From contig NW_024704743.1 in assembly GCF_018977255.1 (NCBI RefSeq), positions 5,644,001 through 5,708,000 on the forward strand: a stretch of 64,000 nucleotides of DNA, given 5' to 3'. This document shows positions 28,501-31,500 of this stretch, piece after piece. Below the pieces are notes generated by a model, which had not been told where the DNA came from, did not search any database, and saw nothing but the letters and a program-made list of their open reading frames with translations. This DNA is from Callorhinchus milii (lineage: Eukaryota). A program made the position numbers and the translations under genes. Every line of letters starts with the position of its first letter. Position 1 is the stretch's first letter.

Positions 28501-31500
28501 ACGCCATTGCTTGGGGAAGAGGCCCCTTGTTTCTTTCTCGTGTCAGTCAGCTGAAACAATCACAGGGCTGACACCACCATGATTTTTTGGTGCCTGCTTT
28601 TTGTCATGCAAAAACAGCCGGATGCAGTGATTGGAAAACAGTGGGAGGGTCGACTCTTATTTCAAGGCCCTATATTTTCAGGCAACTCCAAATTGCATTT
28701 GACTAACCCTTTATATTAAAGGTAGGATTTTGTTTATTTCTTTCCTTTTCAGCTGCCCATTTAATTTCAGGCAAAAGCTTCCGAGTACCTATATAGCAAC
28801 ATTAAGCGGGCAGCAATAAATGCCAGTTATGCTGTATAAGTTGTACAGTTTCTGTTGCTGCACTATCCGTGCTTGAAGCACTAGATTGACATTTCAGTAT
28901 TTTGTGAAGTCTAAAGGTCACTGCCACTTCTGTAAATAATTGGTTATAGAAAGTGATGCAGTCAGTCATAAAGTGATGGAAATATGAATGATGATTTAGC
29001 ATCACTGCAGAAAGCACGACATTACTGAGAAATAGAAAGCACATTACCCCCATTTCTAATAGCTGAATTCTGGTGGTGACTAATGCACGGCGGTTCAGTG
29101 ATGTAAGTATGGTGAGGTACTTGGGTATCTGAACTGTACTTAAATTCAGTTCACGTATCAAGATCGTCCTCTTCGACCGCACCTTCAGCCACCCTCCTGC
29201 CCTCCCTGCCCTCCACCCTCCCTGATCCCAAACCCCCGCTCTGGTCCAAATCACTGACTGTCCTGAGCCTTGGGACGTCCTCCCGACATGTAAAAACAAA
29301 AGTCTCCCCATCTCCCCTCTGGTTCTTTTGCTAATTGTTTTAAATCCATGTCCTCTGGTTGCCGACCCACCTGGCCAGGTGTAGTGGGAAGGAGTGGAAA
29401 TAATTTCTCCATATCTGTTATCAAAACCCCTCAGAATTTTGAACACGTCTATTAAATCTCCCCTTATCTATCTCTGCTCTAAGGAGAACAGTTTCTCCAC
29501 ATAACTAAGTCCATTATCCCTGGTAACATATGGTTGGAGACTCAAGTGGAGTATAAATACTGACAATGACCAAATGGCCTGCATCTGTGCTGTACAATCT
29601 ATACAAATCTCTTGTGATCTTGTGTTATTTAAATGGTTTCCTTTTATTTCCTTCTAGGAAATCTGGCTCATACCAAGGGCAAAAGCATTACCACATGTCG
29701 TGTTCGAACTCCTCAACGTACACCAAACCATTCGAAAGCTGACCAAACCTCTGTAAGAACCATTATTGTGTTGAAAACTGCCCAAATGTTCAACTCAACC
29801 TTACCTTTATCCTCAGGACTAAACGACATGGTCACCTTCCCATTCCCCCTGGCTCAGCATCGGGTTCCATCAAGCACTCTGGGACTCCGACCAGCGTGGA
29901 GAGCTCTATATAAATGCGAGTTGTTGTTATTGTTGTTGTACCTTACACACCAATGCAAAATGAATCCATGTTTTAAGGCCAGTTTGTCTCAACATTTCAG
30001 ATGGTGCAGAATTTTGGAAAATGATTCTAATCCGTCTTAATTTGGAACCTGGTTAATTTGAAGAAAAGCACATTCTTTAAAATAACAATAATCCTTACAT
30101 TTGGTATAGTCCTTTTCACGTTAGGAGGATGCATGAAGTGTTTCGCAGGATATACTATAAAGTGCAGTGTGTTTTGTGGGTGAATGTGGCAGCCTATTTA
30201 CACACATCAATATCCTACGAACGGCCATGGAGTGAATGGCCAATGCAGTGGAGTGTTGCCCAGGCTATAGAGAAAAAAACTCCCTTCTCTTTCTAAATAG
30301 TGCCATGGATATTTTAGTCCTTCAGATGGGAACTCAGTTTAACATCTCATCCAAAGGATGGCACCTCCAATGATGCAGCACACCCCCCAGCACTTCATTG
30401 GAGTGTCAGCTTAGACTAACTAGCAGATGCATAGACATATGGGTTAATCATTCATCAATCATTAGCACTAGCAATCATTTTGTTATCAAGTCATTTTAGG
30501 AAATCAGTTATGAATATATAACACGAAGAACATTAGGAATATTAAACAACAATCGCTTTGTGGTCAGAGAGAGGCATGAATAGAATATATGATACCAACC
30601 TGGGGAGAAGTTGCATTCGAGGGGCAGGAAAACAGTGTAGCTATAGGTTGTAACTATAACTGAAGCGTTTGTTTCCAAAACAGCTGAAAAATGACTTTTT
30701 TCATATTCATTCCAGGAAAAAAAANCACGATGAATAGCAATGAGAAAGAAATAGCTTCAAGTTTGTAGTGGTCAGCTGGTTGTCTGACACGTATGGAAAC
30801 CCATCATCATGCTTAAGTGGATCCAAACGAGAATGAGAGTTCCACATATGTAGTGGCACCTTCACATCTTCCTCACCCTCAATTCCCTCAAAAGCCTTGC
30901 TCCACTCTATAGGCATAATATTATTTTGCCCTACGAACCACTCTCTGCTCTTCTGATTCCTGTTTCCTCCTCTATTCCACTGTCAGAGATCAGGTCTTCA
31001 GCTGCCCAATTCCCCTATCCTCTAAAACAGTCATTTCACTTTACTGTAAATCCCATGAAGCACTTTGAGACATCTTCCTGAAGAATTTCTATCTTCCAAA
31101 AACTTTGCTACTTCTCTCTCTGGGTTCAAATTTCGTTTTGAACGAATTATCTTTTTGGTCATCTATAAATTTCTCCCATTGTCTACTTTTCCATTGTTTA
31201 CCACTCATATTGTTGCTTTGAAACTTTCATTTATATGAAAGCCTTCTCAATGCAAGTTGTTGTAACGAGAAATGTGATTTGCTGTTATATATGAGTAACC
31301 TATTTTCCCCTTGTCTTTCTTCCTTTCCACGTAGATGGATGTCTTTGTATTGTACAGTTGTTCTAACACTTGTGAGGTAAACTCTTTTCCATCTTTCACT
31401 CCCATATTTCGTTGTTTAGATTCCCTATTTTAAATGGAACAGATTTTAGAGTAGTTTAATGCAACCTTCCTTTGAGAGCACTATTATAGTAGCTAAAAAG

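What the first reader, a model, noticed from the sequence alone, without database searches (positions are those of the whole stretch)
31335..31376. Candidate 42-nt in-frame cassette exon inside myosin IIIA loop 2
Seen: in non-repetitive sequence of the phase-0 intron between the two loop-2 exons there is a long pyrimidine tract (tattttccccttgtctttcttcctttccacgtag), then 42 nt, then GAG|gtaaac. It reads [14 protein letters not shown] with no stop and preserves frame. Known: loop 2 is the actin-binding surface loop whose charge tunes actin affinity, MYO3A loop 2 is reported to be autophosphorylated, and loop-2 splice inserts exist in other myosins (e.g. non-muscle myosin IIB B2). I do not recall this peptide in human MYO3A. 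Inference: a tissue-specific insert with no basic residues, two acidic residues and two Cys, placed just before GDSG, could tune motor-actin binding.
Basis: partly seen in the sequence, partly recalled or inferred. Interest (0 to 1): 0.7.

Follow-up and report, generated by a model that had tools for sequence, protein, structure and literature searches.

The report
Ancient optional exon in myosin IIIA
A tiny optional piece of the elephant-shark myosin IIIA gene is really spliced in and is shared with skates, bony fish, a frog and a bird; it lengthens the motor's actin-gripping loop, is already in automated annotations, and its effect on this eye-and-ear motor appears untested.

Summary
The exon is real. 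The window is elephant shark (Callorhinchus milii) myo3a. A homologous 14-residue insert sits at the same place in skate, coelacanth, sturgeon, gar, teleosts, a frog and a bird, with isoforms lacking it in skate, sterlet, gar, cichlids, zebrafish and hoatzin. It is not new as sequence: RefSeq XP_042188523.1 of this species and curated zebrafish NP_991142.2 carry it. Skipping in this species is inferred, not seen; tissue specificity is untested; the cysteines are not conserved. Added here: the contig uses a donor 15 nt downstream of RefSeq's, so the expressed loop matches neither RefSeq protein; nine UAG follow the exon (Musashi-like, post hoc, P 0.002-0.03); the insert probably lies just before the T908-equivalent phosphosite; a second loop-2 cassette exists elsewhere. 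Best reading: a splice switch that damps actin-activated motor activity, like myosin-II loop-2 inserts (about 0.55). Ten literature searches found no description, but key myosin III papers were unreadable.

The parts
29658..29752 (+). Upstream loop-2 exon (95 nt, phase 1 in, phase 0 out), ending at the GT donor used by the RNA contig
   Evidence: contig piece 29656-29752, 0 differences
29738..29752 (+). 15-nt extension (5 codons, ADQTS) beyond the Lys at which homologous exons end. RefSeq XP_042188523.1 would need a GC donor at 29737|29738 (matrix score -4.9), but the contig reads through to the GT donor at 29752 (score 3.5)
31296..31334 (+). AG-free zone of 37 nt with polypyrimidine tract (89% pyrimidine at -30..-4; the 24 ordinary exons 48-85%) and the acceptor AG
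31335..31376 (+). [quoted passage not shown]
   Evidence: junctions; in RefSeq XP_042188523.1; homologs
31417..31563 (+). Nine UAG triplets within 200 nt downstream of the donor (offsets 41, 71, 76, 111, 114, 126, 143, 152, 185): candidate Musashi sites, function not shown
   Evidence: motif from PMC4991804 passages
33707..33784 (+). Downstream loop-2 exon (78 nt, phase 0/0; GDSG...TVASYFR), which probably holds the positions equivalent to human T908 and T919
   Evidence: site numbers from PMC13453034 passages; the mapping is an inference

Best explanation
This is an ancient alternative (cassette) exon of myosin IIIA, present since before cartilaginous and bony fish split. SHOWN: it is spliced into the mRNA of this species and adds 14 residues to loop 2 without breaking frame. 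SHOWN in database isoforms of other species: it is included or skipped. INFERRED: it is skipped in some cells of this species too. INFERRED mechanism: the insert is hydrophobic, Ser-rich, nearly free of basic residues and net -1 to -3. It lengthens the actin-contacting loop from about 45 to about 59 residues and lowers its net positive charge by 1-3 (here +4 to +2). That should weaken weak-state actin binding and lower actin-activated ATPase and gliding speed, giving a slower or more anchoring motor, as the loop-2 inserts A2 and B2 do in non-muscle myosin II. It may also alter autophosphorylation, because it lands three residues before the probable T908-equivalent. SPECULATIVE: inclusion is promoted in photoreceptors by Musashi proteins bound to the downstream UAG cluster.
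For: Junctions 29752>31335 and 31374>33705 (cut +2 = 31376>33707), GT..AG, in one 1939-nt contig of depth 14 in run X1; 1 of 4 runs laid shows them, and the genomic-looking run X2 covers the intron in all 30 bins without them. 77 of 294 stored proteins with intact loop anchors carry a 14-residue insert, 36 distinct peptides, in skate, coelacanth, sturgeons, paddlefish, gar, bowfin, reedfish, teleosts, one frog and one bird. 7 of 8 isoform pairs aligned differ by exactly this insert; 6 of 14 members of the zebrafish cluster carry it, in all four combinations with a second cassette. Teleost read-through ORFs show K|M...E|V, the layout of a separate AG..GT exon 243-252 nt into the intron. Position: matches to Dictyostelium myosin II stop at residue 615 and resume at 629, which flank loop 2 (recalled). 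Loop charge falls by 1-3 in 8 of 8 pairs. Analogy: NM IIB2 has under 7% of the Vmax of IIB0, IIA2 lacks gliding, and charge or length changes in loop 2 alter actin affinity and ATPase (PMC10480317 passages). Loop-2 phosphorylation lowers MYO3A kcat and actin affinity (PMC10982375 passages).
Against: No skip junction 29752>33707 among the 15 joints shown (13 more were not shown), so alternative use in this species rests on the older model XP_007899427.1 and on other species. Inclusion rests on one contig from one run whose RNA nature is a guess. No biochemical data on any insert-bearing MYO3A were found. NM IIC2 shows that a loop-2 insert can activate instead. The charge change is small next to a hydrophobic pattern that charge does not explain. 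The UAG signal was picked after reading the sequence (dinucleotide-shuffle P 0.018; about 0.03 after correcting for 64 triplets), its spacing only roughly fits the 10-15 nt clusters, and its conservation could not be tested. myo3a is not named in the retina-exon tables for human, mouse, chicken or zebrafish. Only 1 of 123 bird-type loops carries the insert (a biased sample). Human retina long reads list no novel exon of this kind among 5 MYO3A isoforms.
Confidence: 0.55

Rival explanations
1. The exon is a real cassette, but its job is to add a short hydrophobic binding motif or to rewire phosphoregulation, not to change loop charge. It could dock on the motor, the kinase domain or a partner. 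Where the upstream exon ends in Lys, inclusion puts Glu instead of Lys three residues before the probable T908-equivalent Ser/Thr and could shield that site from autophosphorylation.
For: Hydrophobic residues are kept at positions 1, 4, 6, 7, 10 and 12 and Ser at 8, 9, 11 and 13 in most of 35 non-chimaera inserts, more pattern than a charge spacer needs. In bird numbering the junction is K905|906 and residue 919 is the second Thr of RETT, matching the 908/919 spacing in PMC13453034. Ser/Thr at +3 after the insert in 14 of 35 distinct contexts. A basic residue at P-3 as the kinase's preference is recalled, not read.
Against: 21 of 35 contexts lack Ser/Thr at +3. In this species the skip form already lacks Lys at P-3 because of the donor shift. 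Lys and Glu at the exon ends are partly forced by the AG|GT donor consensus and were required by my search pattern. No human sequence was in hand to confirm the numbering.
Confidence: 0.25
2. The exon is real but has little effect on the motor: a tolerated, weakly constrained insert in a long disordered loop, or a near-constitutive exon in this species.
For: Class III loop 2 tolerates much length change: a second 24-34 residue cassette in skate, a shark and teleosts, and a private 5-residue extension here. Only inclusion was seen in this species.
Against: Length (14 residues; 15 in eel), frame, position and residue pattern are kept from chimaera to bird, and both forms persist in several lineages, which neutral drift is unlikely to preserve for over 400 million years (divergence time recalled).
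Confidence: 0.17
3. Chance pseudo-exon or rare cryptic splicing with no biological meaning.
For: 32 such segments pass loose thresholds in this gene's introns; the peptide alone ranks 2nd, not 1st, of 62,928 14-mers of the window against a profile of the homologous inserts.
Against: Both junctions in a contig of depth 14 with no mismatches; homologs at the same position in many species and in a named zebrafish myosin IIIA GenBank protein (AAL11513.1) and two NP_ records.
Confidence: 0.02

Closest known systems
MYO3A isoforms in RefSeq/GenBank: C. milii XP_042188523.1; zebrafish NP_991142.2, NP_001349341.1 and AAL11513.1; coelacanth XP_064410770.1; hoatzin XP_075275669.1
   Same: The same exon, position and frame; XP_042188523.1 has the identical 14 residues.
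   Different: These are sequence records with no functional or regulatory description that I could find. The C. milii model joins the exon to a donor 15 nt upstream of the one the RNA contig uses, so the contig's 71-codon stretch is in neither RefSeq protein.
Loop-2 splice inserts of non-muscle myosin II: A2 (MYH9, 21 aa), B2 (MYH10, 21 aa), C2 (MYH14, 33 aa)
   Same: In-frame alternative exon inserted into loop 2 of a myosin motor (PMC10480317 passages).
   Different: Different myosin class and length (14 aa); sequence homology to A2/B2/C2 was not tested. Those inserts have measured neuronal specificity and kinetic effects; this one has neither. Class III loop 2 is also an autophosphorylation target.
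Musashi-dependent photoreceptor exons (for example Ttc8 exon 2A)
   Same: Short alternative exon with a UAG-rich downstream intron and a UAG-poor upstream intron (9 against 0 in 200 nt; PMC4991804 passages), in a gene listed as retina-enriched in zebrafish.
   Different: No binding, knock-out or tissue-inclusion data; myo3a is not named in the exon tables searched.
MYO15A cassette exon 8 (2 residues in loop 1)
   Same: Small alternative exon in a surface loop of a hair-cell myosin motor (bioRxiv 10.1101/2020.06.17.155424 passages).
   Different: Loop 1 (nucleotide pocket), not loop 2, and only 2 residues.

Membership tests
Alternative cassette exon | Flanked by AG and GT sites and spliced at both ends in RNA | tested here: met
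   both GT..AG joints in one contig of run X1 (RNA status is the tool's guess), absent from run X2
Alternative cassette exon | Keeps frame, no stop | tested here: met
Alternative cassette exon | Skipping form exists in this species | tested here: inconclusive
   no 29752>33707 joint among the 15 of 28 joints shown; the older model XP_007899427.1 skips it, its support unknown
Alternative cassette exon | Both forms in orthologs | tested here: met
   7 of 8 aligned pairs; zebrafish cluster 6 of 14 with, 8 without; mostly predicted isoforms
Myosin loop-2 splice inserts (NM II A2/B2/C2 kind) | Insert lies in loop 2 of the motor | tested here: met
   between Dictyostelium myosin II 615 and 629; loop-2 limits recalled
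Myosin loop-2 splice inserts (NM II A2/B2/C2 kind) | Tissue-restricted inclusion | not testable with these tools
   run tissues are coded; only 1 of 3 RNA-guess runs laid holds the transcript
Myosin loop-2 splice inserts (NM II A2/B2/C2 kind) | Changes actin-activated ATPase or motility | not testable with these tools
   needs biochemistry
Myosin loop-2 splice inserts (NM II A2/B2/C2 kind) | Common descent with A2/B2/C2 | not tested
   no NM II insert sequence was fetched; an independent origin is assumed
Musashi-dependent photoreceptor exons | UAG enrichment in the proximal downstream intron | tested here: met
   9 against window mean 2.16 (0.19% of windows reach 9); 0-6 after the 24 ordinary donors; shuffles P 0.0014 mono, 0.018 di; post hoc, one species
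Musashi-dependent photoreceptor exons | Clusters of 3 or more UAG spaced 10-15 nt | tested here: inconclusive
   offsets 111, 114, 126, 143, 152 give gaps of 3, 12, 17 and 9
Musashi-dependent photoreceptor exons | Higher inclusion in photoreceptors, lost without Msi1/2 | not testable with these tools
   myo3a not named in the retina-exon tables searched
Microexon (27 nt or less in the stricter use; limit recalled) | Length | tested here: not met
   42 nt

The most novel reading that the evidence does not exclude
MYO3A carries an unstudied splice switch in its actin-binding loop, over 400 million years old. Musashi proteins include it in photoreceptors, and it converts the tip-directed, kinase-inhibited motor of hair-cell stereocilia into a slower motor, uncoupled from phosphorylation, that anchors actin bundles in calycal processes. 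Fish add a second cassette for four loop variants, and mammals may have lost or silenced it, which would bear on why the hearing-loss literature deals with one motor form only.
Probability: 0.15. Interest if true: 0.7.

Novelty: new member of a known kind. Interest (0 to 1): 0.38.

Why it matters
MYO3A is a deafness gene whose motor is regulated through loop 2. In the passages I read, no loop-2 splice form is mentioned. A conserved alternative insert beside the regulatory phosphosites gives a direct test of how one motor serves photoreceptor calycal processes and stereocilia, and zebrafish has all four loop variants ready for RT-PCR and exon deletion. The importance is limited: the exon is already in the databases, loop-2 inserts are a known device in myosin II, and no mammalian form was found. 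A smaller practical point is that neither RefSeq protein for this species matches the junction seen in the RNA contig.

Tried and rejected
(1) AlphaFold2 of a gar motor domain with the insert (49-row alignment): mean pLDDT 49, pTM 0.42, the whole loop coil at pLDDT 22-30; uninformative, not used as evidence. (2) Runs X6 and X8 hold no exon pieces among those shown, and the run search listed no holder on record as RNA; no evidence either way. (3) Search for mammalian MYO3A: none among the proteins listed, so the mammalian state is open. (4) Metagenome scan for orthologous introns: 5 loci, 4 of them divergent class III genes with another exon layout and 1 a teleost myo3a fragment that starts downstream of the cassette, so UAG conservation is untested. 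(5) Paralog myo3b of this genome has the same phase-0 intron; two weak 42-nt candidates (donor scores 3.6 and 3.8) bear no resemblance to the insert. (6) Second cassette (exon B): 5 homologous peptides against three frames of 29753-33706 gave no score above the shuffled maxima. (7) RBFOX (0 GCAUG), NOVA (5 YCAY against 3.4) and UGC motifs downstream: not enriched. (8) Cys as the functional feature: rejected. (9) RefSeq's GC donor at 29737: poor site, not used by the contig. (10) No MYO3 motor among the 60 best of 227 PDB matches; the loop alone matches nothing. (11) Three look-ups of earlier findings returned nothing.

Full report
Identity of the locus. The large exon at 48745-49701 matches Callorhinchus milii myosin IIIa XP_007899427.1 at 99%. 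A chain of 24 exons from 4400 to 63525 reproduces 1262 of 1263 residues of that protein. The window is therefore the myo3a gene of elephant shark, on the + strand. The stretch around the candidate gave one match in the genome, itself.

The observation. The tract, the 42 nt at 31335-31376, the GAG|gtaaac donor and the open reading are as described. The intron 29753-33706 is phase 0. The tract is 89% pyrimidine, above all 24 ordinary exons (48-85%), with a 37-nt AG-free zone. Splice-site scores are ordinary (7.1 and 7.9). In 55,334 intronic bases, 32, 3 and 2 segments pass loose, middle and strict thresholds, so the sequence alone was suggestive and not decisive. The single hit used the exon's own scores as threshold and is circular.

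RNA evidence. Twelve runs were listed, none on record as RNA; I laid 4 of them. In X1 (RNA by the tool's guess) one 1939-nt contig of depth 14 lies on 29656-29752, 31335-31374 and 33705-33784 with no mismatches, with joints 29752>31335 and 31376>33707 (reported as 31374>33705, cut +2), both GT..AG. X2 covers the intron in all 30 bins and shows neither joint. X6 and X8 show no exon pieces. No skip joint is among the 15 joints shown; 13 were not shown, and contigs drop rare forms. Inclusion is shown once; skipping in this species is not shown; the tissue is unknown.

Already in the databases. The other full-length RefSeq model for this species, XP_042188523.1, contains the identical 14 residues; XP_007899427.1 skips them. 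XP_042188523.1 ends the upstream exon at Lys, which needs a GC donor at 29737 (score -4.9), whereas the contig uses the GT at 29752 and keeps five more codons (ADQTS), seen in no other stored protein. The contig's form matches neither protein. Homologous exons end at the Lys, so the donor appears to have moved 15 nt in this lineage (inference). In zebrafish the insert is in NP_991142.2, NP_001349341.1 and GenBank AAL11513.1.

Conservation. Of 330 stored proteins, 294 had intact loop anchors and 77 carried a 14-residue insert, 36 distinct peptides. The pattern required Lys before, M/L/V and G/D/E at the start and Glu at the end, so those columns are fixed by construction, and it missed the 15-residue eel form. 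Carriers include skate, coelacanth, sturgeons, paddlefish, gar, bowfin, reedfish, many teleosts, the frog Rhinophrynus and the hoatzin. Seven of 8 aligned isoform pairs differ by exactly the insert; the eighth (cormorant) differs elsewhere. Most are predicted isoforms. Only 1 of 123 bird-type loops has it, but that sample came from a skip-form query and cluster representatives. The single lungfish and basking shark records lack it. No mammalian MYO3A was retrieved. Teleost read-through ORFs show the exon as a separate unit 243-252 nt into the intron, with Lys or Arg before and Val after, which fits AG|..|GT. The myo3b gene of this genome has the same intron without a recognisable copy.

What the peptide is. 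Hydrophobic at positions 1, 4, 6, 7, 10, 12, mostly Ser at 8, 9, 11, 13; net charge -1 to -3 (one unit is the required Glu); 32 of 36 have no basic residue; 29 of 36 have no Cys. The segment lies between the matches to Dictyostelium myosin II residues 615 and 629, that is loop 2 (limits recalled). Inclusion takes the loop from 44-48 to 58-62 residues and lowers its net charge by 1-3 in 8 of 8 pairs; here from +4 to +2. In bird numbering the junction follows K905 and residue 919 is the second Thr of RETT. Human MYO3A is phosphorylated at T908 and T919, modelled near acidic actin residues (PMC13453034, passages). If human and bird numbering agree (inferred, not checked), the insert lands three residues before T908; 14 of 35 contexts have Ser/Thr there, this species included. 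The structure prediction was too poor to use.

Possible regulation. Nine UAG lie in +7..+206 after the donor, against a window mean of 2.16 (0.19% of windows reach 9), 0-6 after the 24 ordinary donors and 0 in the 200 nt upstream. Shuffles give P 0.0014 and 0.018, and UAG is the most enriched of 64 triplets (Poisson 4e-4, about 0.03 corrected). I noticed it by eye first, so it is post hoc. Murphy et al. report UAG clusters downstream of photoreceptor-included exons and Musashi-driven inclusion (PMC4991804, passages). Against: in the supplements of PMC9303857 myo3a appears only in gene-level tables (files 1-12 and 15 searched, 13, 14 and 16-18 not); in PMC4991804 only in the expression table (file 11 unreadable); in ASCOT, PMC6952364, not at all (6 files). 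A retina-enriched gene may lack coverage in comparison tissues, so these blanks are weak. The human retina long-read table (PMC11450717, supplement 1, cut when stored) lists 5 MYO3A isoforms, 77 reads on ENST00000642920.2, none with a novel small exon described.

Mechanism. The best reading is a splice switch that lengthens loop 2 and lowers its charge, damping actin-activated activity. It rests on the non-muscle myosin II inserts (IIB2 under 7% Vmax, IIA2 no gliding, but IIC2 active without light-chain phosphorylation; PMC10480317, passages) and on loop-2 phosphorylation lowering MYO3A kcat and actin affinity (PMC10982375, passages; PMC7947357, passages). My odds: real exon 0.97; alternative in this species 0.8; damping by length and charge 0.55; motif or phosphosite effect 0.25; little effect 0.17; Musashi control about 0.4.

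Literature. Ten full-text searches turned up no paper describing a MYO3A loop-2 splice insert, judged from listings and from the passages read. A review of unconventional myosins mentions class III splicing only for IQ number and tail length of myosin IIIb (PMC6981383, passages). Passages of PMC10801316, bioRxiv 10.1101/2020.06.17.155424 and PMC7722341 held nothing on it. I saw nothing of Dose 2003, Dalal 2011, Quintero 2010 and 2013, Schneider 2006, Kempler 2007 or An 2014. The fish cloning paper may well note this variant; I put that at about one in three.

Verdict. A real, deeply conserved alternative exon in loop 2 of myosin IIIA: known as sequence, apparently unstudied as a switch, a new member of a known kind. 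Interest 0.38.

Noticed in passing
window 23780|23781: The myo3a intron after exon 23627-23780 starts with GC (TAG|gcaagt): a GC-AG intron, chosen over the nearby GT by the best-matching exon chain.
   Followed up: partly
window 29738-29752: The donor appears shifted 15 nt downstream in this lineage, adding ADQTS; the RefSeq model XP_042188523.1 uses the ancestral boundary through a poor GC site that the RNA contig does not use.
   Followed up: yes
P0298, P0302, P0334, P0066, P0331; L011:533-613: A second loop-2 cassette of 24-34 residues, basic and Pro/Leu-rich, occurs in skate, Heptranchias (in two similar copies) and teleosts, and combines freely with the first (four forms in skate and zebrafish). 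L011 shows it as a separate AG..GT exon of 27 codons. No trace found in this window's intron.
   Followed up: partly
P0340, P0375: Denticeps myosin IIIb has a 7-residue extra segment at the same loop-2 junction, so MYO3B may have its own small alternative insert there.
   Followed up: no
window 32279-32344: A 66-nt stop-free AG..GT segment in the same intron scores well (7.7/7.7); it overlaps a high-depth repeat-like stretch and no joint to it was among those shown.
   Followed up: partly
window 48747-49698: A single 952-nt exon encodes the run of repeated IQ-like motifs with acidic spacers of the MYO3A tail.
   Followed up: no
P0208 / P0217: Cormorant MYO3A isoforms differ by 9 residues in the neck after residue 1120.
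   Followed up: no
L012-L015: Metagenome records hold intron-containing class III myosin genes of divergent eukaryotes; L012 holds nearly a whole kinase-plus-motor gene.
   Followed up: no
window 29900-30420 and many other intronic ORFs: High-copy repeat-like pieces with very high contig depth, and many reverse-transcriptase-like ORF fragments in the introns; family names not tested.
   Followed up: no
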